64,000 nt of DNA, taken from the NCBI GenBank assembly GCA_903944345.1, contig CAJARJ010000013.1, forward strand, positions 58,672 through 122,671. The letters run 5' to 3'. The stretch is from Candidatus Omnitrophota bacterium (lineage in GTDB: Bacteria > Omnitrophota > Gorgyraeia > Zapsychrales > Fredricksoniimonadaceae). The translations under genes were made by a program, and so were the position numbers. This document shows, piece after piece, positions 24,392 to 62,167 of the stretch (the stretch's first letter is position 1; every line of letters starts with the position of its first letter). Under the pieces are notes generated by a model, which made no database searches, was not told the origin of the DNA, and saw only the letters and a list, made by a program, of their open reading frames with translations.

Positions 24392-26092
24392 TCAAGGCTG
24401 GTGCTGCGGCGGCTCCACAAAATTCTGCAACGGAAGAATCTGCAGGAGCAAAGGAAAATAACCGGCTGATTCCTGATACGCCTCCGGAAGAAAATCCGAC
24501 GATGTGTTGAAGTCCTCGGCCGCACGGACAATATCCAGCCTGCGTTCGATACCGGCCAGATCCACTCCGCCTTTATCCATACGCCAGTTACGCGACACCA
24601 GCTGTAACAAACGCTCGAGATCGGCCGTCATTTCACTTGTGCTCTGATAACGCTGCTGCGGTTTTTCGGCCAGAGCCTTTCTGACCATTGCTCTTATCCT
24701 CAGAAACACATCCTCCCGGTCTCTGGTCTCAACCCGCGTGTCAAGCCACAGCCGGAAAACAGGAACAGAACCCCTCTGCCCCTCCTGCAACGGACTCATG
24801 GCAGTCTGCATAAGCAGCATTCCCAAAGCATAAATATCGCGCACCGCGTTCCAGCGCTCCGGAACCTTAACAGCCCCCGGACTATCCTCCGGCGGGACAT
24901 ACATAGGCACTCCGGTAACCAGGTCTTCGGATGTGCGCAGAGAACCCAGACCGACCGCCATATCCAGATCAATAACCCGCACTCGTCCCCGGCTGTCGAT
25001 CATGATATTGTCCGGCTTGATATCACAAGACACATACCCTGCCTGGTGAACTTCCCCGACCGCGATAAGAAGTGCACGCAACAGTCTCAGCCGCGCTGTC
25101 AGCCCCATATCAGCATGGGCGTAGAAGTATTCCCCGAAAGTCTGGCCATCGATATATTCCGTCACCAGATAACTGCGTTCCTGATCATGAAAGTATTCAA
25201 CAAACCTGACAACCGCCCCGTCACGGCCGGAAGCGGAATATTTCATGGTAATATCCTTTAAAATCCGGGCTTCATTGGCTTGAAGCTGTGCAAGGCTCGA
25301 CTGACGATCAGACTTTGTGGATGGGGTTTTAAGAATATATTTCTTGCCGTCTTTCTCGGCCAGATAAACTGCAAACCGCCCCTTGTCCTGCAACAGGCGC
25401 AAAACGGCATAACCTGCCACCACCGGCTGACCGGACTGATGTGTGGCCATGGAGCTGTCCGCCCCCTGTTCAGGCATAGCCTTGATCGGCTGCAGAATAA
25501 CATCTAGCACGGCCGCATCATTCACCAAACGTTCCAATTCAGACTGATCCGGGGCGCCCTCTTTTCGCAAGGCCAACTGAGCCATATCAAAATTCATTCC
25601 CCCTGAGAAATACCTGCGCACAACAACCTCGCCGGTTGGAATATCCCGCTCCTCGCGGAGCAGGTCGAACGCCCCCTGCTCAAAAGTCCGGGCGTACTGC
25701 TGCCAGATGCGCTCGGCCAAACCGGGATCATCAATAGCAATACCAGTCACCTTCCCGCGATCCACATATTCCTGATGCAAACGCCCGGTTGTCATGCGTT
25801 GTTTGTACCATGCCGCCAGAATCAAAGCAGAATAAATCCGGCGTAACGGGATAAATTCTGCCCCTGTATCCACTCGTTCCTGAAGAAGAGGAATCACCTG
25901 CGTGAGCATAACCTCTTGCGCCATCCCGGCGGCCCCTCCCTCCAGCATAACTTTCAGTCGCGCCGAACGCACAAGAACCATACCAGATGTTTTATCTTCA
26001 TAAACTCCTGCGCTCTGCGGAACAATCCAGACACGCTGCCAGACGTCAAGGGGGGATATCAGTTGTTCCATACATGGCCGCCGCGCGTGCAT
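24392..26092 (-). CDS. Family-paralog::Ser/Thr protein kinase fusion, downstream reading frame (rest of the conserved N-domain, kinase domain, C-terminal GGVDL module)
   Basis: ..RVWIVPQSAGVYEDK..LKVMLE..MLTQVIPLLQERVDTGAEF..LAAWYKQ..RRYFSGG then a kinase domain (YILKTPS, CDIKPDNIMID, DLDMAVG, VPPE), ending ..DKGGVDLAGIERRLDIV.. Confidence 0.75.
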   Translation of the reverse strand: MHARRPCMEQLISPLDVWQRVWIVPQSAGVYEDKTSGMVLVRSARLKVMLEGGAAGMAQEVMLTQVIPLLQERVDTGAEFIPLRRIYSALILAAWYKQRMTTGRLHQEYVDRGKVTGIAIDDPGLAERIWQQYARTFEQGAFDLLREERDIPTGEVVVRRYFSGGMNFDMAQLALRKEGAPDQSELERLVNDAAVLDVILQPIKAMPEQGADSSMATHQSGQPVVAGYAVLRLLQDKGRFAVYLAEKDGKKYILKTPSTKSDRQSSLAQLQANEARILKDITMKYSASGRDGAVVRFVEYFHDQERSYLVTEYIDGQTFGEYFYAHADMGLTARLRLLRALLIAVGEVHQAGYVSCDIKPDNIMIDSRGRVRVIDLDMAVGLGSLRTSEDLVTGVPMYVPPEDSPGAVKVPERWNAVRDIYALGMLLMQTAMSPLQEGQRGSVPVFRLWLDTRVETRDREDVFLRIRAMVRKALAEKPQQRYQSTSEMTADLERLLQLVSRNWRMDKGGVDLAGIERRLDIVRAAEDFNTSSDFLPEAYQESAGYFPLLLQILPLQNFVEPPQHQP

Positions 26093-26540
26093 AAAGCTCT
26101 TTCCAGAAGGCTTTGCCCGTTTCCCCCTGAGGATTAAGAGCTTCCGCCATCATTTGTTTAAGCGCATAATCCTGGCTGAGCAGATCACGCCCCAATCCTG
26201 TCCGGGCGAGGGGTTGCGGCAGAATACGATCCTGTTCATCCGGCTGCAGATTGACCCAAAGGTCCTGCCCTGGAATCGTCAGGGCAGCAAAAAAATATTT
26301 AATCAGAAGCATAGCTTCCTCATCACCGGAAACCTGCTTGCTGACAATAAAACGGAAACGTAAAGGGTCATTGCTGAAAATCTTGATCCCTGATAGATAC
26401 GAAGCATCAACAGGATTGGCAACAGGCCCCTGAACAAACAAAGCCTCTGCCCTGGCGTAAGAGCTCACCGTCAAGTGAACTGCAACACACAAAAGAGTTA
26501 CTGTTCTGGCCAGATCTGTCACAAAATGATGATTCTTCAT
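26046..26540 (-). CDS. Family-paralog::Ser/Thr kinase fusion, upstream reading frame (signal peptide plus first 130 aa of the conserved N-domain); out of frame with 24392..26092
   Basis: MKNHHFVTDLARTVTLLCVAVHLTVSSYARA signal peptide; ..LWVNLQPDEQDRILPQP..LLSQDYALKQ..FWKELYARAAAMYGTTDIPP*. The frame break falls exactly on the C6 (plus-strand G6) run at 26050-26055. Confidence 0.7.
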   Translation of the reverse strand: MKNHHFVTDLARTVTLLCVAVHLTVSSYARAEALFVQGPVANPVDASYLSGIKIFSNDPLRFRFIVSKQVSGDEEAMLLIKYFFAALTIPGQDLWVNLQPDEQDRILPQPLARTGLGRDLLSQDYALKQMMAEALNPQGETGKAFWKELYARAAAMYGTTDIPP

Positions 26541-42102: not shown

Positions 42103-42715
42103 TAATGTCTCCGGAACGTAAAACTACATTTTCCCTGTCAGCCTGATCCTTGTTCATAATATCATAAACACGTACCGGCATTTCTTCCCGAACTCCCGCC
42201 GCATTAACGCGGATCACCTTAACCTTGTTGGGCGCGGCAATCTTGGTAAAGCCCTCGGCAAGCGAGATCAGCTCCACAACAGTCAAGCGTCCCTTGATCG
42301 GATACGCTCCGGGCTTGCGCACTTCGCCCATGATGGTCACCGTACTGTACTCTTCGATAAAAGCTGTCACCTGGGGATTGACCAGATAATCTTTTTCCAG
42401 CATAATACGCAGCTTGTCCTGCAAGCCGGTAACAGTCAGCCCCGCAGCCTCTACCTGACCGATGAGAGGAAAATTGATAACCCCGGTTGAGGACACCCGG
42501 ACTTTCTGTGAAATCTTCTCGTTCTTGCCGTAGTACACATCGATCTGAATGGCGTTCTCGGGGCCGATAATATACTCAGAGGAAGTTTGCTGGTCTGCCG
42601 AAAAAGAAACACCCTGTGCGGCGGCCAGAAAGCCGGACACCGACAGGATGAAGGAAGTCAGCAATAATAAAAAGAAAAAGTGCAGCGATTTAACAATCAC
42701 AGAATAACCTCTCAA
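42077..42715 (-). CDS. Polysaccharide export protein (Wza-like periplasmic Poly_export/SLBB)
   Basis: Signal peptide; ..GPENAIQIDV.., PLIGQVEAAGLT.., SGDIIVVPE: Wza/KpsD-like motifs; non-ATG start (TTG at 42715 or GTG at 42700). Confidence 0.8.
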   Translation of the reverse strand: MRGYSVIVKSLHFFFLLLLTSFILSVSGFLAAAQGVSFSADQQTSSEYIIGPENAIQIDVYYGKNEKISQKVRVSSTGVINFPLIGQVEAAGLTVTGLQDKLRIMLEKDYLVNPQVTAFIEEYSTVTIMGEVRKPGAYPIKGRLTVVELISLAEGFTKIAAPNKVKVIRVNAAGVREEMPVRVYDIMNKDQADRENVVLRSGDIIVVPESIF

Positions 42716-42717
42716 GC

Positions 42718-46656: not shown

Positions 46657-48681
46657 ATGATCCAGCGCTTATATCACTCAAGATGGTTTAAAAAAACAAC
46701 TTGCGCCGTCCTGGCGACATTTGTCACGCTCATCCCGGCACAATCAGGCTACACACAGGTGGTTGCCCCCATGCCGGCACCGGGCCAGATGACGCGAGTA
46801 ACCGGAAAATTTGAGCCTGCCCGCATGGCAGGAATGCGCATAGATCCCCGGAACCCGTTCAATTTCTATTTTCTCATAAACAAAGGCGAACAGTCTTTAA
46901 CACTTGAGGCCCAAAAGGCTGAATACAACAAACTCATAAAATATTTTCTGGCTTCCCTGACCATTCCGAACCGGGATATGTGGGTTAACCTGTCTCCGTC
47001 GGAGTCCGACCGCATAATCCCGGATAACTTTGCCCGGACTGAAACAGGGCACGCCCTTCTGGCACAAGATTATCTTTTAAAACAATTCACGTCTTCATTA
47101 ATGCACCCGGAAGACCCTGTCGGCAAAGAATTCTGGACAAAGATCTACGCGAAAGCGTTCGAAAAATTCGGCACAACCGAGATTCCGATAGATACCTTCA
47201 ACAAAGTGTGGATCACCGCCGACAGGGCGGATATCTATCAAAAAGACGATACCGCTCTTCTGGTCGACAGCCATCTGAAAGTGATGCTGCAGCAGGATTT
47301 CATGGCCATCAGACAGAACAAGGAACAATACGCAGTCGCGGCCGACACCCTGGCGCAAGAGAGCGACGGGGCACGCCAAATGACATCGGATCTTGTGCGG
47401 GAAGTGATCATTCCGGTCATGGAAAACGAGATAAACACCGGCAGCAACTTTGCCCAGGTTCGCCAGATATACAATTCCATGATCCTGGCAACCTGGTACA
47501 AGAAAACTCTCCGGAAAAGCCTGCTCGGACAGATCTACGCCGACAAAAGCAAAGCAGCCGGGATTGAAACAAGTGACCCGCAAGCCAGAGAGAAAATTTA
47601 TCAACAGTATCTCGAAGCGTTCCAACTGGGCGCCTTCAATTATATAAAAAATGACACAAATCCCTCAACACAGGAAACATTACCCAGAAAATATTTTTCG
47701 GGAGGAGTTGCCCTCTTGCCAGACGCAGCCATGATCAAGGTCGTCGATGAACGTTCAGCCAGAAATCAATTTCTTGGTCTGAGGAATACTGTAGAAGTTG
47801 TTACCACCCTGTTCACCAAAACCAGCCGACTCTTCCCTCTTTTACTGCTCCCCGCCAACAGCTTGACTTACGCATCAACAACTCTCCCGTCTACCGAACC
47901 GCCTGACACAGATCTCATCGCGACAACCCTCGGAATGATCCATTCACAGACCGCAGAATTCATGAATCTGCTGAACAACGAAGCAACCGGCTGGGCGCTG
48001 CTGGGAATATTCCTCGTTTCCGTGCCCCTGATCCTGTACCATGCCCACAAACTCAGGATCAAGATCGCACTTGCTGTCCAGATTATCGATACCAGGACAG
48101 ACTTGTTGTCCAGGGAAGACCTTTTAGCAATACTAAAAGAGGTATACCGGTCAGATGCAACCACAAGCTCGGATCTGGACATTCAGTTTATTACCAATAG
48201 CATGCAAAAGCAGAATATCGATATTCAAACCGGTCTCGCGGCATTAATATCGTTCTTCAGCCTGGATCAGGAACACCGCTTGCTTGAGGTCAATGCAACT
48301 GCCTACATAGCCAACATAAAAACAAACGATCTCACATCGAAAAGAAACAGATTGAATCCTCTCCGTCACGCGGCTGAGATTTCCGACATTGAAAGAAGAA
48401 TACACCAGAGCGAACAATCTTATATGCAACTGGAAAAAGCCATAGACGCATTAACACCCCCCGATTCTGCCGCCCTGCAGGCGCCTACCGGCGGTATTGA
48501 TCTGGATGAAAAATATCTGACCATGAATATCCGTGTGGACGGAAAAGGAATGCCTTTGCCGGTGTCCATGCAGGATCCGGCGATGCTTGATATCGACGGG
48601 CTCTCACCGTTCATTCGTGAGATTGAACCTGTGACCCCCTTGAATATGCCGGTATTCCTGGAACTGACCCAAAGCCCGTAA
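46657..48681 (+). CDS. Family paralog P2 (674 aa): signal peptide, conserved N-domain, hydrophobic segment, C-terminal GGIDL module
   Basis: ..GMRIDPRNPFNFYF..WVNLSPSESDRIIPDNF..LLAQDYLLKQ..FGTTEIPIDTFNKVWITADRADIY..LKVMLQQD..REVIIPVMENEIN..NSMILATWYK..PRKYFSGG..; transmembrane-like GWALLGIFLVSVPLILY; ends ..APTGGIDLDEKY..PLPV.. Confidence 0.8.
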   Translation: MIQRLYHSRWFKKTTCAVLATFVTLIPAQSGYTQVVAPMPAPGQMTRVTGKFEPARMAGMRIDPRNPFNFYFLINKGEQSLTLEAQKAEYNKLIKYFLASLTIPNRDMWVNLSPSESDRIIPDNFARTETGHALLAQDYLLKQFTSSLMHPEDPVGKEFWTKIYAKAFEKFGTTEIPIDTFNKVWITADRADIYQKDDTALLVDSHLKVMLQQDFMAIRQNKEQYAVAADTLAQESDGARQMTSDLVREVIIPVMENEINTGSNFAQVRQIYNSMILATWYKKTLRKSLLGQIYADKSKAAGIETSDPQAREKIYQQYLEAFQLGAFNYIKNDTNPSTQETLPRKYFSGGVALLPDAAMIKVVDERSARNQFLGLRNTVEVVTTLFTKTSRLFPLLLLPANSLTYASTTLPSTEPPDTDLIATTLGMIHSQTAEFMNLLNNEATGWALLGIFLVSVPLILYHAHKLRIKIALAVQIIDTRTDLLSREDLLAILKEVYRSDATTSSDLDIQFITNSMQKQNIDIQTGLAALISFFSLDQEHRLLEVNATAYIANIKTNDLTSKRNRLNPLRHAAEISDIERRIHQSEQSYMQLEKAIDALTPPDSAALQAPTGGIDLDEKYLTMNIRVDGKGMPLPVSMQDPAMLDIDGLSPFIREIEPVTPLNMPVFLELTQSP

Positions 48682-48787: not shown

Positions 48788-50977
48788 ATGTTCAAACGTT
48801 TGTGTGCAATCCTACTAATCGTGTCCGTTCTTGTCACTTCCACAATTCCCTCGGCGGCTTTGGCCCAGATGTCGTCTTTACCCGTCCCCGGATCCATGCT
48901 GGGGAAAACCCCGGATTTCTCTCCTCTGATAATGCAGGGAGTTCGCGTCCATCCCGATAATGCTCTCCTGTTTGATTTTATTATCGATTCCGGAGACTCA
49001 GGACTCGCCACTGACAGTGCCGCTTTCAGACAGGAAGCCGGAAAACTCGTCAATTATTTTCTGGCGTCGCTCACTATAAAAGAAGAAGACCTTTGGGTTA
49101 ACCTTTCCCCGTTTGAACACAACCGCATCCTCTCCCCCGATCTGGAAAAAACAGAACTGGGCAGTGACATGCTGGCACAAGACTACATCCTGAAACAATT
49201 AAGCGCTTCACTGATCTATCCGGAAGAAAATCTGGGAGAAACGTTCTGGAACCGGGTCTACGCCCGTGCCCGGGAAGAATTCGGCACCACAAACATACCG
49301 GTCGACACCTTCCACAAAATATGGATCAAGGCAGACAAGGTCCGGGTTATCGAACACGAGGGGGCCGCCTATGTGGCCGGAGCACACCTGAAAGTCATGC
49401 TGGAACAGGACTATCTGGCCATAAGCCGCACACCTTCCGACGGCGAAGGCAGCGATATTGCCCGTGATATCCTGCGCGAAGTCATTGTTCCTGAAATAGA
49501 AAAAGAAGTCAACCGGGGCACCCATTTTGCCCCGCTCAGGCAGATGTTCAATTCCATGATCCTTGCCACATGGTACAAGCTGGCACTCAAAGACGCCCTG
49601 CTCAACCGGATTTACAGCGACCGCGGAAAAACCGGCGGCGTACTGGCAGACGATCCGGCAGAAGCAGAGAAAATCTATGAACGCTATCTGGAAGCTTACA
49701 AAAAAGGCGTTTTCAACTATATCAAGGAAACCCCCGGAGCGAATGAGGAACCTACTTTGCCAAGAAAATATTTCTCGGGTGGAGTGGACGGGAACCTGGC
49801 TAAAATACTGGAACGTGTGGATGCCGCTGCTGCTCCGACAGAACTGACAGCTCCTGGCAACAGTCGCCGCTCCGCCGTTACGGTGCGGCTGGAAACAGTT
49901 GCCCAACCGGTCGAAGACTCCGTTCCTGCAAAAGAAACCCAACAACGCATAGAAAACTTCCTGGCGGGACACTCCGAAACGGCAACAGATGCGTCCATGC
50001 TGTCTGATTTAAACGAACTGATCAAAACTATCCGCGAACTTCCGGTCGACATGTTCGAAAAACGTTTCGAGGAACTCTCCCTGTTGACCAGTAAAAAACA
50101 GTTGCGCGTCCTGCGTGATTTGTTCGACAAAATAAGAGGCCTGGACGAGCCTGGCGTTGAGCATCTGATCTCCCGGATAAAAGCCCTGGGTCTCAGGCAG
50201 GCCGAAATGGATGAACTGGTTGAAAATCTCGAAAAAACTGTCTGGATGCGAAAAGAAGCTTCCGGCCCGGCTGTCTCCACCGATCGTTACATCACCCTTC
50301 TGAAAAAAAAGATTGCCCTGAGCCTGTCATTTATAGTTCTGGGATTTATATCCGGGAGCTTTGCCGTTATCGACATGCTAGACAACAGAACAGAATGGAC
50401 TTCTCTGCTGGCCATTTTTGCCTCGTACATTTTTTTTATACTGGCCAGGCATCTGGACAAATATATTAAAAGCATGAACGAGCAACCGGCCAAACGTACG
50501 CTGGGCCAGAACGATCTTGTGAATCTGGCGGAACAGTTTCTTGTCCTTTATCAGAATGGCGAAGCGATACCGGGTGCAACCGAAGAGCTCGCGCGGGACG
50601 CCGTCAATTACGAAATCTATTTCTGGCTGCTGCACGAAAGATACATTGCGCCCGATGATCTGCCTGCTGCTGTTCGTGGTGTCAGCCAACAGCTGTCGCT
50701 AACACCATTAAAAGGCCCTGGCAGTTACTGGAGCATTACCGTCAATCACCCTGACCCTCTGGACAGTAACACCGACCAGTCCCAGGCCGCCAAGGGTGGT
50801 ATCGACCTGAATGCCAAAACCATGAGCCTGGATATTTCCAGAACAGCGGCAAGCGCCGCGATCAGAATGGATCAATCTGCCTTCGACGGGTTTGAGGACA
50901 ACCTGTTTTCGGGACTGCAGGGGATTATTATCAGGATCGTTCCGGTTGAAAACCCGGCCGTATTTCTGGGCGTCTGA
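48788..50977 (+). CDS. Family paralog P3 (729 aa): signal peptide, conserved N-domain, two hydrophobic segments, C-terminal GGIDLN module
   Basis: ..GVRVHPDNALLFDF..WVNLSPFEHNRILSPDL..LAQDYILKQ..FGTTNIPVDTFHKIWIKADK..LKVMLEQD..REVIVPEIEKEVN..NSMILATWYK..PRKYFSGG..; ends ..AAKGGIDLNAKT..IVPVENPAVFLGV. Confidence 0.8.
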   Translation: MFKRLCAILLIVSVLVTSTIPSAALAQMSSLPVPGSMLGKTPDFSPLIMQGVRVHPDNALLFDFIIDSGDSGLATDSAAFRQEAGKLVNYFLASLTIKEEDLWVNLSPFEHNRILSPDLEKTELGSDMLAQDYILKQLSASLIYPEENLGETFWNRVYARAREEFGTTNIPVDTFHKIWIKADKVRVIEHEGAAYVAGAHLKVMLEQDYLAISRTPSDGEGSDIARDILREVIVPEIEKEVNRGTHFAPLRQMFNSMILATWYKLALKDALLNRIYSDRGKTGGVLADDPAEAEKIYERYLEAYKKGVFNYIKETPGANEEPTLPRKYFSGGVDGNLAKILERVDAAAAPTELTAPGNSRRSAVTVRLETVAQPVEDSVPAKETQQRIENFLAGHSETATDASMLSDLNELIKTIRELPVDMFEKRFEELSLLTSKKQLRVLRDLFDKIRGLDEPGVEHLISRIKALGLRQAEMDELVENLEKTVWMRKEASGPAVSTDRYITLLKKKIALSLSFIVLGFISGSFAVIDMLDNRTEWTSLLAIFASYIFFILARHLDKYIKSMNEQPAKRTLGQNDLVNLAEQFLVLYQNGEAIPGATEELARDAVNYEIYFWLLHERYIAPDDLPAAVRGVSQQLSLTPLKGPGSYWSITVNHPDPLDSNTDQSQAAKGGIDLNAKTMSLDISRTAASAAIRMDQSAFDGFEDNLFSGLQGIIIRIVPVENPAVFLGV

Positions 50978-54113: not shown

Positions 54114-55142
54114 TTAAACTATCCGGGCGCGAAGGTCGTGGAAAACTTCGTCCAGAGAACCGGCATGAGCTGAGCGGATTTCCTGGAGCTGACGCGCAAC
54201 CTCGTTACGCAGACGCGGGGAACGCAGGTCATCCAGCTTCTGGCACAAGCCAAGCCGCCGAGCGAGCGTAAAATAAATACGCTCTTCTTCGGGAAGTTCA
54301 AGGTAGCGATCCATCAATCCCAAAAGTGCAGGCTTGTCCTGAGGAAACTGTCCCCTGGCTTCCAGCAAAAGATCAACAGCATGATGGTTGGCGTAATGAC
54401 TGGTAATGCCTTCCAGTGCCGCAATCAGCATTTTTTGTTCTTCAATAATATTCTTTTCTGTCTGCAGGGTAAATTCCCCGGCCTGCATCTGGCGAAACAA
54501 ACCTGAACCAGGTTTAACACCGATAGTAAGAACCCGGATAAAATCCGGATTGATTTCATTCAACACCCTGGCTGTTTCACGAGCGTGCTCCTGCCACAAT
54601 TCCTGCCCGCCGAGCCCCAGGATAATAAATTCCGAAACCGACATTCCCGCCTCTTTGGCCCTGCGTCCGGAAACAGCAATATCAGTGGCCGTAGCCCCTT
54701 TGTTGACCTTCTTGAGTACCGTATCCGACCCCGACTCCATTCCGCAGTAGAGCTTGTTGAGTCCGGCACGGCACATATCCTGCATTTCTTCCGGTGACTT
54801 GCGGATCATGGTCTGGGCTCGACCGTAACTGCTGATGCGTTTCAGCTGCGGGAACCTCTGCCGCAAAAAGCCGAGCAATTCCAGAAGATCGGCGGTTTTC
54901 ATCAAAAAACTGTCGCCATCCTGAAGAAAACATGTTTCAAAAGCGTGCCCCCGGTAATATTCTGCCGCGGCATCAATATCGCCTTTTATTTCGTCGAGCG
55001 TCCGCAGGGAAAACTTCATGTCCCTGTAGTTGACGCAAAACTCGCACTTGTTCCAAGGGCAGCCGCGCGTAGTACGCACAAGCAGACTTTCAGCCTCGTC
55101 TACCGGACGAATAGGCCCCAGTTCAAACGGCGGATTATTCAT
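54114..55142 (-). CDS. Radical SAM domain protein (unusual Cx4Cx2C cluster motif), coupled to paralog P4
   Basis: ..TTRGCPWNKCEFC.. near the N-terminus; 342 aa; the ATG lies 2 nt after the P4 stop codon (TAA-AT-ATG). Confidence 0.7.
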   Translation of the reverse strand: MNNPPFELGPIRPVDEAESLLVRTTRGCPWNKCEFCVNYRDMKFSLRTLDEIKGDIDAAAEYYRGHAFETCFLQDGDSFLMKTADLLELLGFLRQRFPQLKRISSYGRAQTMIRKSPEEMQDMCRAGLNKLYCGMESGSDTVLKKVNKGATATDIAVSGRRAKEAGMSVSEFIILGLGGQELWQEHARETARVLNEINPDFIRVLTIGVKPGSGLFRQMQAGEFTLQTEKNIIEEQKMLIAALEGITSHYANHHAVDLLLEARGQFPQDKPALLGLMDRYLELPEEERIYFTLARRLGLCQKLDDLRSPRLRNEVARQLQEIRSAHAGSLDEVFHDLRARIV

Positions 55143-55144
55143 AT

Positions 55145-58100
55145 TTAAAACCTCACAAAATCCGTTAGCGCGGCCTGCGCGGTAACACCAACAATAACCG
55201 GAACAATCCCCGTTGCATGCTGACGCAGCTGCTGCATGGTTTCTTCACTCAGCTCAAAGACTGAAGCCGATGCCAGATCATACCCCGATCCAGCCGCTCT
55301 TTCAATCAGAAGCCTGATATTATCCGGATTAAGATCGATACCACCCGGAGTTAATGCTGACTGGGCGTGATCGGCTCCTACAACAACCTGTCGCGCCCGG
55401 GCAAGCGCCTCATTATTGTTCCTGTACCCTCTGAGATACTCCTTGAACTCAGGCGGCATACTGTTGCTGTTGGCTGACTGCTTGAAATCGGCGATCGGCC
55501 CGGCGGCAACAACAACCAGACGACGGCGGCCATAGGCGCGCTCAAGAACAGCCCGTAAAGCCGGATGATCAGAAATTTCATCGGAATGCCCTGAAAAAAA
55601 ACTGTCCAGACGCGCACCAAAGGCTTCCGCAGTCCCGTCATCCTGAAAAACCCACAAATCTTTCTCCCTGAGCTTGACCATAAGCCCGTCAGTCACAAGC
55701 CGGTTCAATATTCCGGTCCCTTCATAGCCCAACTCGTTAAGGGTGGCCGAGGACACCATCCCCGAAAGCACAACATAAACACTTATCGACTGCCCCTTGC
55801 TCTGAAGGCGTTCAATGTGCGGCAAGCCATTCTGGTTGGAATCAATCTTGCCTTCCAGAAAATCATTGATCAACCCCTCAATCACGCGCCGCTCGCGCGG
55901 TTGCTGCAAATAGTCACCATTCACCCATCCTCCGTCGACAACCGCGACATCATATCCTTTGATCCGCAAAGGCTGCTCCTGTTTTAAATACCGCTCGGGC
56001 GTAACACCCCAGAGCTTCCAGTAACCCTGCAGAACACTTTGCTCAATCTGCATCTGCCTGCTCATATGCGGTAGAAGTTTGTCGTACCCTTCCCGTGCAA
56101 GCCGACCATTCTTGACTATGGTTCGTGTTTCGGAGAGAGCATTAAAATAAGCTTCGCCATTGCCCTCGCTATCCAGAAAACGCCGCACAGACTCCGGCGG
56201 AGCTTGCGCCGAACGGGCCAACGTACTGACCACATCAGCATAATTCCCCTCGTACTGCAATCCGGAAGCAAGAATACCGTCAAGTCCCTCGGAGATGAGA
56301 ACCCCTTCCTCAATGGCAGCAGACTCCTCGTCCTGCCAGGGAATTTCGACGAAAGCCAGAAAACGCGAACCCATGCTACCCTCGGGCCGCCAACGATCAA
56401 TATCCTCAAAGGTCAGACCCTGCGCTTTGGAGGCAAGAAATACCCGTTCTGGCGTTACATTGACTCCACTCCGGGCAAGACTGATAACCGCGTCCAGCAG
56501 ACGTGTATCCTCGGGCTCCAGCTGCAGAATCTCTGCCTCGCCCAGAATAAAAGCCAGCTTGTCTGCAGGCGGTTCCCCGTTAGAAAACCCCGAAGATTCC
56601 CGCAAAAACCTGGTGACCCAGGTATTCATCCACAATCCAAAGCGCTCTCTGAGTGCCGCTTGCAATATTTTACGATCAACCTGTGCATCGGTAATATCTG
56701 TAAAAGCCAAATCATTCTTGTACTGACGCACCACCTTGCGCAAAACATCTTTAAGGCTGGTACCTGGACGGGCATGCTTTATCATGACCTCGTAATGACG
56801 AATCATGCGCTCAATCAACGGGCGCTGCAAAGGAGACGGGGCTACCGGGCGAGAAACCTCTATGGTTTTCTTGATCTTCTCGGTCCTGGCATAGGACTGC
56901 AGAAACAAATCCACATTATAGTACCCGGCTTCAAACAAAAGATCCGCAACCCGTCTTTCCACATCCACAAATTGCTTCTTATGCCGCGGCTGGGGAATAT
57001 CCTGCTCCCGGATATTGGCCAAAACCTGTAACAAGTCTTGCCACCGTGAACTTCTGATAATATCCGAGAGTTCCTCCTCAAGCTGTCCTCTTCTGAAAGG
57101 ATTCGGAATCCAGGAATCTTCTCCCAGGTCTTCGATAAATATAAGATCTTTCAACGGGAGCGGTTCAGCAACAAATGCGGCGAACAAACGCAGAAACAAC
57201 AGGCCCCTGCGGGCTTCCTGAATAATCTGCTGATTTTTTGATCTCCCGCCTTCGGCCAGAATCTCGAGCAATTTATTACCGACTGCAGCCGTCTTATCCT
57301 GCGCGCCAAACGCCTCCTGGAACTTTAAGAGCAGTCCGGAAGAAAGATCCTCTTTCCTGAAAACTTTCAGCATTTTCTCCAACCCCAGCCACTCTTCCAT
57401 ATTGACTTTAGAAAATAAATGCCCCATTCTCATAACAAGTGCCTGACGGAATTCCACAACATCCAGATCCTTGAGAAATTCGACTACCAGCCCGGCGAAT
57501 TCAAAAGACTTTCCCTTTACAATCGCGTTTTCAATCTTTTCAAGCTGCGGACGCAACTTCTTGATCTGCCCCTTGTGCTTGGGAAGAAATATGGCCGAGT
57601 CCCGTGTAAAGTCTGCAACATTATAATGAAGCCCCCCTTGCATCTTGATCCCCTGCGCGGCGTCGGTCTGAACCTGCAGATCAGAAGAGACCCTGTAATA
57701 ATCCCGCGTGTCCGCAGGAAGGTCCAAATCCATCGCGGCGTCGCCATTGAGAATCACTCCGCCGGACATATATTTGCGGGGGATAGTGTCGCCATTCCAG
57801 GGGTCAGTTTCTTCCCGAATCAGGTTAAAAACACCCTGCCTGAAACTGTCCATATAAGCTGTCCAGACCGTTTCGGCAGAAACCCTCCCGAAGCTGTCCA
57901 TCCCCTGCGTTTTACGGCTGTCAGAGTACACCCGCGCCACAACAGAATCATACAGCTTTTTCTTGTACCACGTGGCCAATACCAGACAGCGATAAATCTC
58001 TCTCACCCTGGCAAAACGCGGGCTTTCATTAACCTCGCGCTCAAGAGCGGGTATAACCACTTCGCGCATGGCACGTAAAGCCGCGGTACGCGCCGGATTG

Positions 58101-58900
58101 TTATATCCCGGACCAATTTCAGCCGAAAACTGCGGATAAGCCGCCGAAGCCCTGTAATCGTCCTCAAGCAAAACCTTCAGACGAGTTTCCGTCACAACTG
58201 CAGCAGCACCCGGCGCGGCGACGTCCCGGGAAAAGTTTTCAAAAATACGCGCGCTGTCAGAAGTTATCCAGACCTTGTTGAAGGTATCAACCGGCAAATC
58301 GGTTGTGCCAAACTTTTCGTGCAAATCAGCATAGACACCGGCCCAAAAAGCTTTCCCCTGGCTGTCGTCAGGATGAACCAACTCGGCGGCCACGCGCTTG
58401 AGCAAATAATCCATAACCAGCAAGTCCTGCCCCATGCCTGTTCGCGCGAGGTCCGGGGTCGTCACCCGGTCTTTTTCATAGGGGGAAAGATTGATCCACA
58501 AATCCTGGGGAGGAATAACCAGCGAAGAAAGAAAGTACCTGATCTGACGAAGGGAGTCCTGGCTGTTATCAATCTCGGAACTCCCCCAGGCAGCATTGCG
58601 CTCGAAAATGAAATCCATCCGTAAAGGATTGCGGGGGTCAACCCTGACACCCTTCATGATCACGCCGGAGGGGGCTGTAATATCTTCAAGCAGAGGATCG
58701 CCGGGCAACGCAAGTGGAAGAACAGATTGTGCGCTAACAGGAACTACGGAGCCCAAAAAAAGGATGGCGCACAAAAATAACCGGAAGAAAATTCCGAAAG
58801 GTGAAAGCATCTGGCCAGAACAATTTAGAAGTGACATGGTTTTTGACAAATCCGGGTTAAAACTACAGGAAAGTATAATATATTTTAAGCTTTCCTGCAC
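55145..58900 (-). CDS. Family paralog P4 (about 1,230-1,251 aa): signal peptide, conserved N-domain, long unique central region, C-terminal GGIDLN module
   Basis: ..GVRVDPRNPLRMDF..WINLSPYEKDRVTTPDL..LLVMDYLLKR..FGTTDLPVDTFNKVWITSD..LKVLLEDD..REVVIPALEREVN..LVLATWYK..PRKYMSGG..; ends ..LTPGGIDLNPDN..IVPVIVGV... The track ORF starts at a GTG at 58900; ATGs at 58837 and 58810 are alternatives (the signal peptide follows 58810). Confidence 0.8.
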   Translation of the reverse strand: MQESLKYIILSCSFNPDLSKTMSLLNCSGQMLSPFGIFFRLFLCAILFLGSVVPVSAQSVLPLALPGDPLLEDITAPSGVIMKGVRVDPRNPLRMDFIFERNAAWGSSEIDNSQDSLRQIRYFLSSLVIPPQDLWINLSPYEKDRVTTPDLARTGMGQDLLVMDYLLKRVAAELVHPDDSQGKAFWAGVYADLHEKFGTTDLPVDTFNKVWITSDSARIFENFSRDVAAPGAAAVVTETRLKVLLEDDYRASAAYPQFSAEIGPGYNNPARTAALRAMREVVIPALEREVNESPRFARVREIYRCLVLATWYKKKLYDSVVARVYSDSRKTQGMDSFGRVSAETVWTAYMDSFRQGVFNLIREETDPWNGDTIPRKYMSGGVILNGDAAMDLDLPADTRDYYRVSSDLQVQTDAAQGIKMQGGLHYNVADFTRDSAIFLPKHKGQIKKLRPQLEKIENAIVKGKSFEFAGLVVEFLKDLDVVEFRQALVMRMGHLFSKVNMEEWLGLEKMLKVFRKEDLSSGLLLKFQEAFGAQDKTAAVGNKLLEILAEGGRSKNQQIIQEARRGLLFLRLFAAFVAEPLPLKDLIFIEDLGEDSWIPNPFRRGQLEEELSDIIRSSRWQDLLQVLANIREQDIPQPRHKKQFVDVERRVADLLFEAGYYNVDLFLQSYARTEKIKKTIEVSRPVAPSPLQRPLIERMIRHYEVMIKHARPGTSLKDVLRKVVRQYKNDLAFTDITDAQVDRKILQAALRERFGLWMNTWVTRFLRESSGFSNGEPPADKLAFILGEAEILQLEPEDTRLLDAVISLARSGVNVTPERVFLASKAQGLTFEDIDRWRPEGSMGSRFLAFVEIPWQDEESAAIEEGVLISEGLDGILASGLQYEGNYADVVSTLARSAQAPPESVRRFLDSEGNGEAYFNALSETRTIVKNGRLAREGYDKLLPHMSRQMQIEQSVLQGYWKLWGVTPERYLKQEQPLRIKGYDVAVVDGGWVNGDYLQQPRERRVIEGLINDFLEGKIDSNQNGLPHIERLQSKGQSISVYVVLSGMVSSATLNELGYEGTGILNRLVTDGLMVKLREKDLWVFQDDGTAEAFGARLDSFFSGHSDEISDHPALRAVLERAYGRRRLVVVAAGPIADFKQSANSNSMPPEFKEYLRGYRNNNEALARARQVVVGADHAQSALTPGGIDLNPDNIRLLIERAAGSGYDLASASVFELSEETMQQLRQHATGIVPVIVGVTAQAALTDFVRF

Positions 58901-58919
58901 ATTATCCGGATCAGATCGA

Positions 58920-59549
58920 CTAACTTGCGGTAGCCGTGATCGTCAAAACACCTTCATAGACTCCGGCAACATCACTCAGGGTAAAGGGGACGGCACCCGC
59001 CGGGTCGGTAGCATCTCCACTCGCCAGCTGCAAATGAACAATCAGCGCTGTGCTACTACCCATCTCTTCAGGCGTAACCTGTTCGTTTATAACATCTTTT
59101 AACAGTTTTCTGGGGCCATGATCGGGCAGATCAACTGTAATACTCTGATTACCTCTATAAACAAATCGCTTAAACCAGGCCACAGTGTGCCACCCTAACC
59201 CCTTGCCGGTTTGTCCGTTAGGATTTCTACTTTCCGCATAAGTGAGCGTGGCATTTATACTCCCTACCCAACCGATAGGAGTGATGGAAATAACGAACGT
59301 GTTGGGTGACTTATAAATATTCTGAGCAGAATCAAACTGCAGGGCGCCAAAATCAAGGGAACCACTCTCGGGTAAAACGTCCACATTCTCGCCGCGGGCA
59401 GCGGAAACCATGATCCCTGCTTGAGAAGGAACATAAGCTCCCAGATTAAAAGACTGCTCATCCGCCTGCAAAATTCCGCAAGTCAAAAGAACAAAAAAGA
59501 AAATTAACCGGGCAATTAATTGGTGACACACAGAATTGTTTTCTAACAT
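58920..59549 (-). CDS. Hypothetical small secreted protein (209 aa), first gene of the P4 operon
   Basis: ATG at 59549; signal peptide LIARLIFFFVLLTCGILQA; the first 9 codons are encoded by the IR element (MLENNSVCHQ is the reverse complement of ..TGGTGACACACAGAATTGTTTTCTAACAT). Confidence 0.5.
   Translation of the reverse strand: MLENNSVCHQLIARLIFFFVLLTCGILQADEQSFNLGAYVPSQAGIMVSAARGENVDVLPESGSLDFGALQFDSAQNIYKSPNTFVISITPIGWVGSINATLTYAESRNPNGQTGKGLGWHTVAWFKRFVYRGNQSITVDLPDHGPRKLLKDVINEQVTPEEMGSSTALIVHLQLASGDATDPAGAVPFTLSDVAGVYEGVLTITATAS
59523..59540. repeat. IR-element left arm GTGACACACAGAATTGTT (preceded by AATTAATTGGTGA)
   Basis: Left end of a MITE-like unit of about 116 bp, 59523..59638. 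Confidence 0.7.
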
Positions 59550-59620
59550 TCTTTACACAAGTTATACAACATACAGTTTTCAATTATTACATTGTAATAA
59601 AACGCAATTAAATGTCAAAG

Positions 59621-59638
59621 AATAATTCTGTGTGTCAC
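59621..59638. repeat. IR-element right arm AATAATTCTGTGTGTCAC
   Basis: Inverted partner, one mismatch; the internal sequence begins TTCTAACATTCTTTACA and ends ATGTCAAAG, like the 62189..62305 copy. Confidence 0.7.
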
Positions 59639-59695
59639 TAATTATTGCTAATTATTCTTTTTAATATAACAATAGAATGTGATAAAATGTTAAAT

Positions 59696-59713
59696 AATAA
59701 TTCTGTGTGTCAC
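59696..59713. repeat. Second right-arm copy AATAATTCTGTGTGTCAC(CAATTAA), 85 bp upstream of the P5 ATG
   Basis: Solo arm, or a tandem arrangement with 59621. Confidence 0.65.
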
Positions 59714-59797
59714 CAATTAACACAACTGCCCGCTGGGGCAAGGAGAATAAAGATTCGCTTTACAACTCAAGACTGATTAACAAAAGGAGAAACAGGC

Positions 59798-62167
59798 ATG
59801 CGCTATGTATTATCCAGTCAATCCGATCAGTTGAGGACAAGAAAGCCCGGCACACACATCATCAACGCGGTCATGACCGCCATATTCCTCTTTCAAAGCT
59901 GTGTTGCACCCAACGTATGGGCGCAGTCCCTTCAGATGCCATCATCAGTCCCCTCTACAAAACCAGCGTATATCCCCGCGAGCCTGCAAGGTCTGGTTCT
60001 TGATTACAAAGAACCCTTTAAACTCAATTTTCTCGTTAGCCCCGGGCAATCCCCTCTTTCTCCTGTCGAAAAGAAAGAAGAATACGCCCGCCTCGTAAGA
60101 TATTTCTTGGCCGCCCTTGCCATCCCCGACAACGACCAGTGGGTCAACCTTTCACCTTTTGAAAAAGAACGCATTATTTCCGGGAACTTCGGCCGCACGG
60201 AAATGGGCCGCGACCTGCTGCGGCAGGACTATCAACTCAAACAATTATCCTCCAGCCTCACTCATCCCGACTCTGCAACAGGGAAAATATTCTGGGAACA
60301 TCTGTATGCCGAATTTTTGCGCACATTCGGAACAACCCAAATCCCCGCCGAGGCCTTGAACAAGGTGTGGATCATGCCGGACAAGGCCGTAATCCATGAA
60401 AACAGCCGAACCCGTTCGGTACACATTCTGGAACAACGATTAAAAATTGTCAGCGATGTGGATCATGCCGCGCTTCGCGGAGGACAACCGGACAGATCTC
60501 CTCTTGAGGATATTTACCAGGATGCCCTGCGCAAAACCATCCTGCCACTAATCGAAAAAGAAATTAATGAAAGCCGCGACTTCGCCATGCTCCGGCAGAT
60601 TTACAGCAGCATGTTACTGGCCGCATGGTTCAAGCGGGCCCTCAAGGATTCGGTCCTCACCAATCTTTACGGCGACAAATCGAAAACCACAGGCATCGAT
60701 ACAAATCCGCTTGTCAACCAGGCCATCTACCGTGATTACGTTGACATGTTCCGCAAGGGAGTCTTTGATTTCATCCGGGACGATCTGGACACAGCAACAG
60801 GAGACATCCTCCCCCGCAGGTACTTCTCGGGCGGGGCTGTTTCTGTCGGATCAGCTTTCGAGGATACAGTGACGGTCCTGACCGATCAGTCGCAAAGAAT
60901 TGCAGATCCCAACGAGGAACTGGTTACAGCAAGCCTGGTCTCTCCCCAACAAATCCCCCGACGCCTGGCCCCAACAGATATCCCCGTCGTTCTAATACTG
61001 CTGTCTCTCTGGCAGGGACATACCAATGCCCCCAATAAACAGGTTGTAATTCCTTTCTCGCCGATATACGCACAGTTCTTGCCTGAACAAAACGCTATCC
61101 CGGGGACACGTCTTCTGGACGACTCCCCGGCAGCAGGTCTTGAAATTGTTGATCGTCACGATTTGATCTCCTGGCTCGTTGGCCTGAAGAATTTCAAACG
61201 GGCCAAGAAACTGGCCCAGATAGCCTTGCGCCAAAGACATGAACTCTTGGCCCTGGCTCTTTCCTTACCTCTCTCTGAAACATTGTCAGACGACCAACAA
61301 ACCCGTGTCCTGACGTTTTCAGTCAATCACCGGGATTACACCGTCGAGATCATCAGTCACAACAAACCTTTCACATATAATGGTACTGATTACGATCCGC
61401 TGCCCGGAAGCATGATAAAAATCACAAAAGACAGAGGGCATGAAATTCTCCTGGAAATCCTGAAGGGCGAAACAACACCCGCGCAATGGAAGACAGACGT
61501 TGTTCCTTTCCTGCTGGCCCGGGTTTTTCCAGGAATTGAAGTTTCCGGATTCGATCAACCCGCCGAAACATTCGAATTGGCAGCGTCCAAGGACGACATG
61601 ACCAGCGACGACAATACTCCTTCCTTAAACGTAACTGCAAATACACTGGAACAAATTTTTTCTTTACCAGCGTCGAAAACAGAACTCGTTTCAAGAAAAG
61701 ATGCCCTGGAACTGGCTTTTATGGTGGAAACACCGGAGGGCAAAGCTCTCCTGACGGCCCTGCCTCTTTACGCCCCTGAAGATAAAGACCGCACATTTGT
61801 CGTCGGTTTACAGGTCACTGTCTCCACACTCACAGAAACCGGGCTTCACGAAATACTTTTTGCCAATACACACGATCTTTCCCTTATCAGCCGTCTGAAC
61901 AGAGAAAATCCGTCGTGGCGTAATTTTGCTGTTTTCGCAAGCGCGCTGGTTGCCGGCAATCCCGACACAAACAGCAGTCCTGGCAGCCTCGCAGCCGCCG
62001 CTCCTGGTGGTGTTGACTTCAGCGAAGCAGCACTGGATTTGTTGATCAAACGAGATGGCAGCGGGATTCCTCTGCCTGTGGGTCAGCAAAACCTGACGAA
62101 TATAAGAATCAACGGACTGGTGCCGGTCATTATGAACATCCGTCCGGCAGTCGAAATTAATTGGTAA
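59798..62167 (+). CDS. Family paralog P5 (789 aa): conserved N-domain, unique central region, C-terminal GGVDF module
   Basis: ..WVNLSPFEKERIISGNF..LLRQDYQLKQ..FGTTQIPAEALNKVWIMPDKAVI..KTILPLIEKEIN..SSMLLAAWFK..PRRYFSGG..; ends ..AAPGGVDFSEAALDLLIKRDGSGIPLPV..VPVIMNIRPAVEINW; ATG with a GGAG ribosome-binding site. Confidence 0.8.
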   Translation: MRYVLSSQSDQLRTRKPGTHIINAVMTAIFLFQSCVAPNVWAQSLQMPSSVPSTKPAYIPASLQGLVLDYKEPFKLNFLVSPGQSPLSPVEKKEEYARLVRYFLAALAIPDNDQWVNLSPFEKERIISGNFGRTEMGRDLLRQDYQLKQLSSSLTHPDSATGKIFWEHLYAEFLRTFGTTQIPAEALNKVWIMPDKAVIHENSRTRSVHILEQRLKIVSDVDHAALRGGQPDRSPLEDIYQDALRKTILPLIEKEINESRDFAMLRQIYSSMLLAAWFKRALKDSVLTNLYGDKSKTTGIDTNPLVNQAIYRDYVDMFRKGVFDFIRDDLDTATGDILPRRYFSGGAVSVGSAFEDTVTVLTDQSQRIADPNEELVTASLVSPQQIPRRLAPTDIPVVLILLSLWQGHTNAPNKQVVIPFSPIYAQFLPEQNAIPGTRLLDDSPAAGLEIVDRHDLISWLVGLKNFKRAKKLAQIALRQRHELLALALSLPLSETLSDDQQTRVLTFSVNHRDYTVEIISHNKPFTYNGTDYDPLPGSMIKITKDRGHEILLEILKGETTPAQWKTDVVPFLLARVFPGIEVSGFDQPAETFELAASKDDMTSDDNTPSLNVTANTLEQIFSLPASKTELVSRKDALELAFMVETPEGKALLTALPLYAPEDKDRTFVVGLQVTVSTLTETGLHEILFANTHDLSLISRLNRENPSWRNFAVFASALVAGNPDTNSSPGSLAAAAPGGVDFSEAALDLLIKRDGSGIPLPVGQQNLTNIRINGLVPVIMNIRPAVEINW

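What the first reader, a model, noticed from the sequence alone, without database searches (positions are those of the whole stretch)
55145..62167. Shared C-terminal GG[IV]D[LF]-initiated module on otherwise unrelated C-termini: candidate sorting or processing signal
P2, P3, P4, P5 and the kinase fusion all end with a conserved tail of about 55-65 aa that starts with a GG motif (P2 ..PTGGIDLDEKYLTMNIRVDGKGMPLPV..; P3 ..AKGGIDLNAKTMSLDISR..IVPVENPAVFLGV; P4 ..TPGGIDLNPDNIRLLIERAAGSG..IVPVIVGV..; P5 ..APGGVDFSEAALDLLIKRDGSGIPLPV..VPVIMNIRPAVEINW; kinase ..DKGGVDLAGIERRLDIVRAAED..). A conserved head plus conserved tail around variable cargo resembles C-terminal secretion or sorting domains (T9SS CTD, PEP-CTERM, type I) or an autoprocessing cleavage site at GG. 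It does not match PEP-CTERM or GlyGly-CTERM, which have a transmembrane segment plus a basic cluster, and there are no RTX nonapeptide repeats.
Basis: partly seen in the sequence, partly recalled or inferred. Interest (0 to 1): 0.7.

Follow-up and report, generated by a model that had tools for sequence, protein, structure and literature searches.

The report
Conserved tail of an Omnitrophota protein family
Five genes in this window belong to a very large, unnamed protein family of Omnitrophota bacteria in which a signal peptide and a conserved 350-residue head are always paired with a conserved 55-residue GGIDLN tail around an unrelated middle part, so the tail is real but is one half of a two-part family module, not a portable sorting tag.

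Summary
Five proteins in the window end in a GG[IV]D[LF] tail, 53-66 residues from GG to the stop. A profile built only from outside sequences recovers four of them (E 1e-28 to 8e-6). The kinase tail is degenerate, and that gene is frameshifted.

The tail matches nothing in Pfam, NCBIfam or the PDB. A tail profile finds 5,151 cluster representatives among 1.84 billion proteins, and in all 150 listed the match lies near the C-terminus. Labelled records are mostly Omnitrophota MAGs, often with several copies per genome.

The tail is not portable:
- **Coupling to the head:** 46 of 53 complete tail-bearing ORFs also carry the N-terminal head, and the other 7 are split genes or lie close to a contig end.
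- **Co-divergence:** head and tail pairwise identities correlate (r = 0.72).
- **Folding:** AlphaFold2 gives the isolated tail no secondary structure, but gives it strands at pLDDT 80-91 inside full-length P2.
- **Partners:** no neighbouring gene family recurs across 80 loci.

My best reading is that head and tail form one conserved chassis on Sec-exported proteins, with the tail docking as added beta strands and the orphan middle looping out. A trans-recognised sorting signal remains a live rival. Cleavage at GG has no support.

The parts
48490..48678 (+). P2 tail (aa 612-674, GGIDLDEKYLTMNIRVDGKGMPLP...)
   Evidence: The outside-only profile scores it E 1e-28. In the full-length AF2 model it forms strands 613-615, 622-627 and 649-658 and helix 665-672, with pLDDT 78-91.
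50795..50974 (+). P3 tail (aa 670-729)
   Evidence: The outside-only profile scores it E 5e-9.
55148..55345 (-). P4 tail (aa 1186-1251)
   Evidence: The outside-only profile scores it E 8e-6.
62006..62164 (+). P5 tail (aa 737-789), the most canonical of the five
   Evidence: The outside-only profile scores it E 2e-22. It is 59% identical to outside tails. Folded alone with a 50-sequence alignment, it shows no secondary structure and pTM 0.19.
24395..24571 (-). Kinase-fusion tail (aa 508-566 of the ORF), degenerate
   Evidence: It aligns in register but is not significant against the outside-only profile (domain E 2.6). It scores 42.6 bits against the profile that includes window sequences.
46774..47706 (+). 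P2 head domain (aa 40-350), preceded by a signal peptide at 46657-46773
   Evidence: Head HMM score 503 bits. Homologues are 45-70% identical.
48881..49783 (+). P3 head domain (aa 32-332), preceded by a signal peptide ending ...SAALA|Q
   Evidence: Head HMM score 427 bits. The leader was read.
57758..58663 (-). P4 head domain (aa 80-381), preceded by a signal peptide ending ...PVSA|Q
   Evidence: Head HMM score 323 bits. The leader was read.
59936..60835 (+). P5 head domain (aa 47-346), preceded by a signal peptide ending ...NVWA|Q
   Evidence: Head HMM score 406 bits. The leader was read.
25598..26053 (-). Second half of the head in the kinase ORF (aa 14-165)
   Evidence: Head HMM positions 138-312.
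26047..26540 (-). Signal peptide and first half of the head of the kinase gene, in another reading frame. The frameshift is at a C6 run at 26050-26055.
   Evidence: Head HMM positions 14-138, E 2.5e-42, in frame 2 of the reverse strand. Sequence shown.
24392..26540 (-). Full kinase-fusion gene as reconstructed: signal peptide, head, Pkinase, tail; interrupted by one frameshift

Best explanation
The GGIDLN tail is the C-terminal half of a two-part, family-defining module. The family is very large, unnamed and apparently centred on Omnitrophota.

Each member has four parts:
1. A cleavable Sec signal peptide.
2. A conserved alpha/beta head of about 310-350 residues. It ends in PRKYFSGG and is followed by a short helix and a D.A.V.L-type strand.
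3. A fast-evolving middle of about 200 to more than 2,400 residues. It usually has no relatives, and sometimes carries receiver, kinase, HATPase, WD40, HEAT, LysM or DnaJ domains.
4. The tail of about 55 residues, GGIDLN-ANLNLQIKRDG-GVPLP--QQD...I-G(L/F)-PVI--I-P---LP, followed by about 10 variable residues.

Inferred mechanism: the tail does not fold on its own. It adds its beta strands to the head region of the same chain, probably next to the post-head strand. This ties the two ends together, so the variable middle projects as a loop from one conserved chassis. That chassis gives all paralogues a common handling after Sec export (localisation, anchoring or onward transport).

Shown: the architecture, the coupling of tail to head, the conservation, the lack of any match to a known family, and the signal peptides.

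Inferred: the docking and the purpose of the chassis.
For: **Coupling in cis**
- 95 of 120 head homologues carry the tail within 25 aa of the end, and 9 more carry it with a longer extension.
- In 80 genome loci, 46 of 53 complete tail-bearing ORFs also have the head. The 7 without it are immediately downstream of a head-bearing ORF (L022 in-frame stop, L057 frameshift), start within 550 bases of the beginning of the contig (L018, L045, L059, L063), or sit on a 2.1-kb contig (L080).
- In all 150 listed hits of the exhaustive profile search the match lies near the C-terminus. Of those at least 450 aa long, 43 have the head and 16 do not.

**Co-divergence**
- Pairwise identities of head and tail correlate with r = 0.72 over 142 proteins. 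Mean identity is 59% for the head and 50% for the tail, while the middles do not align.

**The tail is not an autonomous fold**
- AF2 of the P5 tail with a 50-sequence alignment gives no secondary structure and pTM 0.19.
- In full-length P2 the tail forms three strands at pLDDT about 80-91. A 10-residue post-head strand (379-388, pLDDT about 85) has no obvious hairpin partner.

**Very strong conservation of the first 28 tail residues**
- G100 G100 I99 D90 ... I95 K89 R87 D94 G94. G97. P91 L97 P92 ... Q96, in percent.

**Export**
- 145 of 149 leaders have an h-region and 135 have an AXA-like site.

**No partner in cis**
- No recurrent neighbouring gene family was found.

**No known family or fold**
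Against: - I could not inspect contacts or PAE of the model, so head-tail docking rests only on the contrast between the isolated tail and the tail in context. That contrast used two different paralogues (P5 and P2).
- A mean-field DCA on 142 sequences (Meff 106) gave no interpretable head-tail contacts. It was underpowered.
- By Kyte-Doolittle windows, 11% (threshold 2.0) to 46% (threshold 1.5) of members have one or two hydrophobic segments between head and tail. P2 has one. If these are true membrane spans, head and tail would lie on opposite sides in members with one span.
- The near-invariance of 14 tail positions is more typical of an interface with one conserved external partner than of a simple structural strand.
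- The full-length model has only a mean pLDDT of 68.
Confidence: 0.45

Rival explanations
1. The tail is a true C-terminal sorting or secretion signal. After Sec export it is recognised in trans, as an extended peptide, by an Omnitrophota-specific machinery encoded elsewhere in the genome. This would be functionally analogous to the T9SS CTD. The head would be a second recognition or anchoring element.
For: - The position near the C-terminus is constant: GG-to-end has a median of 66 aa and is at most 75 aa in 89% of carriers.
- Sec leaders are near-universal.
- Fourteen positions of the first 28 residues are at least 87% conserved, which fits a single conserved receptor.
- The isolated tail has no autonomous fold.
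- Omnitrophota encode conserved T2SS/Tad-like secretion loci (bioRxiv 10.1101/2023.11.21.568195, read).
Against: - No confirmed head-less carrier was found.
- No conserved neighbour was found.
- Extensions after the tail reach about 80 aa.
- Some members have hydrophobic segments that would put the tail in the cytoplasm.
- One member (P0220) carries its own internal Por_Secre_tail domain in addition to the tail.
Confidence: 0.3
2. Head and tail bind between molecules rather than within one. The tail of one protein completes the head of the next by donor-strand-like complementation. Different paralogues would then assemble head-to-tail into a heteropolymer or surface array that displays variable middles.
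For: - Same structural hints as the best explanation.
- Both ends are conserved across many co-resident paralogues: five in 64 kb here, and up to seven among the 80 loci listed for one MAG.
- In L022 and L057 the head and tail parts lie in separate ORFs, although sequencing errors or gene decay would also explain this.
Against: - There is no direct evidence.
- A monomer model already gives confident tail strands.
- The split genes look like nonsense or frameshift lesions.
Confidence: 0.1
3. The GG marks a proteolytic processing site. The tail would be a propeptide removed by a double-glycine (C39-type) or other peptidase, or by autoprocessing.
For: - GG is invariant (100% in 234 tails).
- C39 peptidase domains occur in Omnitrophota giant proteins (bioRxiv 10.1101/2023.11.21.568195).
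- D.AM is enriched just upstream of the tail: 28% of carriers against 4.6% expected. It could be a second site.
Against: - Known double-glycine leaders are N-terminal, and their conserved residues precede the GG. Here the positions before GG are variable and the conserved ones follow it.
- No peptidase fold or catalytic His/Cys is conserved in the head (invariant columns).
- No peptidase gene lies adjacent.
Confidence: 0.07
4. The shared tail is a chance or low-complexity resemblance, or reflects recent DNA-level duplication.
For: None beyond the weak kinase tail.
Against: - An independent profile gives E-values down to 1e-28.
- The exhaustive search finds 5,151 representatives.
- The window tails are only 18-37% identical to each other, so they are old paralogues under selection.
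Confidence: 0.01

Closest known systems
T9SS C-terminal domain (Por_Secre_tail, PF18962 / TIGR04183) of Bacteroidota
   Same: Both are conserved C-terminal elements on Sec-exported proteins with very diverse upstream parts. Both occur in many copies per genome. Neither has a transmembrane helix.
   Different: - The CTD is an autonomous 7-stranded Ig-like sandwich of 70-100 aa (PMC11285876 abstract). This tail is about 55 aa and is not predicted to fold alone.
- The window proteins show no HMM match.
- The CTD sits on proteins with unrelated N-termini, whereas this tail always comes with one head.
- One family member (P0220) has a real Por_Secre_tail as well as the tail.
Exosortase/rhombosortase-type signals (PEP-CTERM, GlyGly-CTERM and relatives)
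   Same: Both are lineage-specific C-terminal signatures on multi-paralogue exported proteins. A glycine-rich motif starts the element.
   Different: Those signals consist of a motif, a transmembrane helix and a basic cluster within about 25-30 aa at the extreme end. Here there is no helix and no basic cluster. The element is twice as long and may be followed by up to 80 aa. There is no NCBIfam match.
Planctomycete DUF1559 / prepilin-type N-terminus plus H-X9-DG C-terminal domain family (from my own knowledge, not tested here)
   Same: Both are huge expansions specific to a PVC-related lineage. In both, a conserved N-terminal export element and a conserved C-terminal signature bracket a variable middle.
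   Different: The termini are different: a type IV prepilin signal there and a Sec signal plus 350-aa head here. There is no sequence relationship.
Donor-strand complementation in chaperone-usher pili, and two-partner-secretion TPS domains (analogies of mechanism only)
   Same: A terminal strand that needs a partner fold to become ordered. A conserved domain after the signal peptide that serves handling after Sec export.
   Different: There is no Ig-like pilin fold, no beta-helix and no Pfam match. There is no usher or TpsB gene nearby.

Membership tests
T9SS CTD (Por_Secre_tail) | Match to PF18962 / TIGR04183 | tested here: not met
   None of the five window proteins hits either model at E <= 1.
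T9SS CTD (Por_Secre_tail) | Autonomous Ig-like beta-sandwich of 70-100 aa | tested here: not met
   The tail-only AF2 model has no strands and pTM 0.19. The element is about 55 aa long.
T9SS CTD (Por_Secre_tail) | Portable: found on proteins with unrelated N-terminal parts | tested here: not met
   46 of 53 complete tail ORFs have the same head. The rest are split genes or lie close to a contig end.
T9SS CTD (Por_Secre_tail) | T9SS machinery genes (SprA/PorU/PorV etc.) in the genome | not tested
   Only 64 kb of the genome is available. Nothing of the kind was seen among the neighbours scanned.
PEP-CTERM / GlyGly-CTERM type sorting signals | Short motif followed by a transmembrane helix and an Arg/Lys cluster at the extreme C-terminus | tested here: not met
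   The column profile of 234 tails shows no basic cluster. The only hydrophobic run is the 9-residue PVI..I.P strand. GG-to-end distance is 53-134 aa. No NCBIfam model matches.
RTX / type I secretion substrates | Tandem GGxGxDxUx nonapeptides upstream of an unconserved C-terminal signal | tested here: not met
   Each protein has a single GGIDLN. No HemolysinCabind or RTX model hits.
Double-glycine leader peptides (C39 peptidase substrates) | N-terminal leader with conserved hydrophobic positions before GG | tested here: not met
   The element is C-terminal. Positions -25 to -1 are variable and positions +2 to +28 are conserved.
Outer-membrane protein beta-signal | Terminal strand ending in an aromatic residue at the very C-terminus | tested here: not met
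   P4 ends in F and P5 in W, but across the family the end is variable and can lie up to about 80 aa beyond the tail.
Two-partner secretion TpsA (for the head) | TPS beta-helix domain after the signal peptide (PF05860) and an adjacent TpsB gene | tested here: not met
   No Pfam hit. The head is mixed alpha/beta with long helices. No recurrent neighbour was found.
Omnitrophota head-plus-tail family (unnamed, defined here) | Sec leader, head HMM match at the N-terminus, and tail HMM match within about 100 aa of the C-terminus | tested here: met
   P2, P3, P4 and P5 meet all three criteria. The kinase gene meets them only after correcting a frameshift, and only with a weak tail.

The most novel reading that the evidence does not exclude
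Head plus tail form a phylum-specific export, display or delivery chassis. Omnitrophota, which have been proposed to be host-dependent or predatory, would use it to present or deliver hundreds of rapidly evolving cargo domains at the cell surface or into prey. These cargoes include kinases, receiver domains and WD40/HEAT repeats that would make little sense in a periplasm. The nearly invariant GGIDLN...RDG.GVPLP..QQ segment would be the handle for an undiscovered secretion or assembly machinery.
Probability: 0.15. Interest if true: 0.85.

Novelty: new variant of a known kind. Interest (0 to 1): 0.55.

Why it matters
The family has at least 5,151 clusters at 50% identity carrying the tail, and more than 2,000 head homologues in a capped search. 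It has no Pfam or NCBIfam model and no solved or recognisable fold. I found no mention of it in the literature I could search.

It appears to be one of the largest paralogue expansions in a phylum known almost only from metagenomes, whose members are thought to depend on or prey on other cells.

A shared signal peptide, head and tail around orphan, fast-evolving middles points to one common handling route for a large and diverse set of exported proteins. Identifying that route would open up Omnitrophota cell-surface and interaction biology. It would also give annotators a model for thousands of 'hypothetical proteins'.

Tried and rejected
- **Word-indexed search with the five window tails:** it found nothing because these tails are too divergent for 5-residue words. 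It was replaced by the exhaustive profile search.
- **Genome scan with the 50-tail alignment:** It was repeated with 12 canonical tails.
- **hhalign of tail against head plus post-head region:** no similarity (probability 0.35%). The resemblance between the head ending (YFSGGV..) and the tail start (GGIDL) is therefore not homology.
- **Mean-field DCA for head-tail contacts:** Meff 106 for 388 columns. The top pairs look like noise and were not used.
- **Tail subtype against hydrophobic segments:** the R-type and V-type tails (position 15) do not differ in the number of hydrophobic segments.
- **PDB sequence searches:** only a spurious Huntingtin low-complexity hit and sub-threshold hits.
- **Neighbour clustering:** the only 'families' seen in at least 7 loci were antisense shadow ORFs of the family genes themselves.
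- **Literature:** no relevant paper contains GGIDL or GGIDF. The Omnitrophota giant-protein papers do not describe this family.
- **My own recollection:** I recalled that Ca. Elulimicrobium is an Omnitrophota genus. NCBI places it elsewhere and the paper I had in mind does not mention it.

Full report
**1. What is in the window**

Five ORFs carry the element:
- P2: 46657-48681 (+)
- P3: 48788-50977 (+)
- P4: 55145-58900 (-)
- P5: 59798-62167 (+)
- A kinase fusion: 24392-26092 (-)

Each has one GG[IV]D[LF] motif, 53-66 residues before the stop. A tail HMM run over all six reading frames of the window finds these five and nothing else. The finding's coordinates cover only P4 and P5.

All five also share an N-terminal head of about 310-350 residues that ends in PRKYFSGG. 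The regions between head and tail do not align to each other.

The kinase ORF seemed to lack the first half of the head. That half, together with a signal peptide, lies just upstream in another frame (head HMM positions 14-138, E 2.5e-42). The frames switch at a C6 run at 26050-26055. The gene is therefore either a full family member with a sequencing error or a decaying copy. Its tail is also the weakest of the five.

**2. Is it more than chance?**

Yes. A profile built only from 103 tails of proteins outside the window scores P2 at 1e-28, P5 at 2e-22, P3 at 5e-9 and P4 at 8e-6. The kinase tail aligns in register but is not significant (domain E 2.6).

**3. How widespread is it?**

All are unnamed or 'hypothetical', and none has a Pfam domain over the head or tail. 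The named ones come almost entirely from Candidatus Omnitrophica/Omnitrophota MAGs. Of the best 120, 95 carry the tail within 25 residues of their end and 9 more carry it with a longer extension. Most of the rest look like truncated or partial sequences.

An exhaustive HMMER search with a 50-tail profile against 1.84 billion representatives found 5,151 proteins at E <= 1e-3 and 2,097 at E <= 1e-10. In all 150 listed, the match lies near the C-terminus.

A pattern scan of one genome per species gave 191 confirmed places. The 80 kept are labelled as follows:
- 48 Omnitrophota/Omnitrophica
- 30 'uncultured Planctomycetales', all TPA 'binchicken' bins whose labels I could not verify
- 1 'bacterium'
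- 1 Ca. Elulimicrobium, which NCBI places outside Omnitrophota

Single MAGs contribute up to seven of the 80 loci. The family is thus a large multi-paralogue expansion centred on Omnitrophota.

**4. Anatomy of the tail**

Over 234 tails, the percentage conservation starting from GG is: G100 G100 I99 D90 (L57/F35) N78 x A65 N65 L85 N55 L69 Q71 I95 K89 R87 D94 G94 x G97 V74 P91 L97 P92 x x Q63 Q96 D67.

A less conserved stretch follows, then I-x-G-(L/F)-x-P-V-I-x-x-I-x-P-x-x-x-L-P.

The distance from GG to the end has a median of 66 residues and a range of 53-134; 89% of tails are at most 75.

The residues before GG are variable, except for an enriched D.AM motif. It occurs within 25 residues upstream in 28% of carriers against 4.6% expected. 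In the middles it is 14 times more frequent than composition predicts.

**5. Is it a portable tag?**

No.
- In the 80 loci, 53 complete ORFs carry a tail and 46 of them also carry the head.
- Of the seven that do not, L022 lies directly after a head-bearing ORF across one in-frame stop, and L057 does so across a frameshift.
- Four more (L018, L045, L059, L063) start within 550 bases of the beginning of the contig. L080 sits on a 2.1-kb contig.
- Among the exhaustive-search hits of at least 450 residues, 43 have the head and 16 do not. I could not check whether those 16 are fragments.
- Pairwise identities of head and tail correlate at r = 0.72 over 142 proteins.
- No neighbouring gene family recurs around the 80 loci apart from antisense shadow ORFs.

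**6. Structure**

AF2 of full-length P2 with a 62-sequence alignment gave a mean pLDDT of 68.
- The head is mixed alpha/beta, with three beta hairpins and long helices.
- A helix and a 10-residue strand (379-388, pLDDT about 85) follow the PRKYFSGG motif. From reading the sequences, all five window proteins and many homologues show a D.A.V.L-type strand 35-45 residues after the GG of that motif.
- The tail forms strands 613-615, 622-627 and 649-658 and helix 665-672, with pLDDT 78-91.

In contrast, the P5 tail folded alone with 50 aligned tails shows no secondary structure and pTM 0.19.

I could not see contacts or PAE. Docking of the tail strands on the head or post-head strand is therefore an inference from this contrast.

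**7. Location in the cell**

Of 149 complete leaders, 145 have a hydrophobic h-region and 135 have an AXA-like site, typically ...SGYA|Q. The window proteins show ...ALA|Q...VSA|Q...VWA|Q and ...ARA|E. The family is therefore Sec-exported.

Between head and tail, 54-89% of members have no hydrophobic segment, depending on the Kyte-Doolittle threshold. Between 11% and 46% have one or two. P2 has one and P3 visibly has two. If these are true membrane spans, head and tail would lie on opposite sides in members with one span. That is a caveat for both the docking model and the sorting model.

The cargo is mostly orphan sequence. The P4 middle has one homologue among 5.8 billion proteins. Of 38 long members, only a few have Pfam domains: Response_reg in three, and WD40, HEAT, LysM, HATPase and Por_Secre_tail in one each. 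One search also lists DnaJ, a methyltransferase and a PLP enzyme, and one search lists cNMP-binding. Several of these normally work in a cytoplasm, which is odd for exported proteins. This leaves room for an effector-like reading.

**8. Interpretation**

The best-supported picture is a two-part chassis, head plus tail, on exported proteins, with the variable middle as an insertion. I put the descriptive part of this at about 0.9 and the docking mechanism at about 0.45.

- A trans-recognised sorting signal remains plausible (0.3), because the first 28 residues are conserved beyond what a structural strand needs.
- Intermolecular head-to-tail assembly is possible (0.1).
- Processing at GG is unsupported (0.07).
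- Chance is excluded.

**9. Comparison with known systems**

The tail fails the tests for T9SS CTD, PEP-CTERM/GlyGly-CTERM, RTX, double-glycine leaders and the OMP beta-signal. The head fails the test for a TPS domain (see the membership table).

In function it most resembles a T9SS-like C-terminal handling element. In architecture it resembles lineage-specific families with conserved N- and C-termini, such as the planctomycete prepilin/H-X9-DG family (from memory, not tested).

**10. Verdict**

The feature is real, strongly conserved, undescribed and apparently centred on one phylum. The 'portable sorting or processing signal' reading is only partly supported.

Interest is moderate (0.55). 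The size of the family and its odd cargo make it worth a proper study, but no mechanism is shown yet.

Noticed in passing
window 26047-26540 (-) and the C6 run at 26050-26055: The kinase-fusion gene is interrupted by a frameshift in a run of six C. The signal peptide and the first half of the head are in a different frame from the rest. This is either a sequencing error, a decaying pseudogene or a slippage-prone tract.
   Followed up: yes
P2 aa 355-358 (window ~47719-47730), P4 aa ~390-393, and homologues P0002-P0255: The tetrapeptide D.AM (also D.AQ) is about 14 times more frequent in the variable middles than composition predicts. It lies within 25 aa upstream of the tail GG in 28% of carriers against 4.6% expected. 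It also occurs just after the head in P2 (LPDAAMIKV) and P4 (NGDAAMDLDL). It may be a linker, docking or cleavage motif.
   Followed up: partly
window 54114-55145 (-); L083 3111-7834; L084 1998-6721: The P4 stop codon abuts the start of a radical-SAM gene (342 aa, PF04055). The same gene order, including the following 228-aa ORF and an alpha/beta hydrolase, is kept next to the P4 orthologue P0256 in two other assemblies. This suggests an operon specific to this paralogue.
   Followed up: partly
P0220 aa 1068-1139 (protein from the exhaustive search): One family member carries an internal T9SS-type Por_Secre_tail domain (PF18962, 28.6 bits against a cut-off of 27). It lies about 260 aa upstream of that protein's GGIDL tail.
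   Followed up: partly
L080 52-984 (= P0121): In this protein the first half of the tail (G.I.FD...IKIGRDEHG.LLPLSQQN) is duplicated in tandem in front of a complete tail. This hints that the tail has two sub-elements.
   Followed up: no
L022 3-3833; L057 561-4354: The head-bearing and tail-bearing parts lie in separate adjacent ORFs. They are separated by a single in-frame stop in L022 and by a frameshift in L057. The cause could be assembly errors, gene decay or genuine two-chain versions.
   Followed up: partly
window 58920-59549 (-): A 209-aa ORF with an N-terminal hydrophobic leader and no Pfam match lies directly upstream of P4 on the same strand. A 238-aa gene occupies the same position next to the P4 orthologue.
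   Followed up: partly
window 38927-43926 (-): A polysaccharide export and assembly cluster lies just upstream of P2/P3. Read from the translations, it includes an O-antigen-ligase-like membrane protein, a chain-length determinant/tyrosine-kinase-like protein and a Wza-like protein. It also includes a BBP2_2 beta-barrel porin (PF10082, E 9e-17). No link to the family was found.
   Followed up: no
window 36950-38896 (-): Read by eye, this 648-aa ORF appears to fuse a class-D beta-lactamase/transpeptidase-like N-terminal part (STFK motif) to a serpin-like C-terminal part. I did not test it with a domain search.
   Followed up: no
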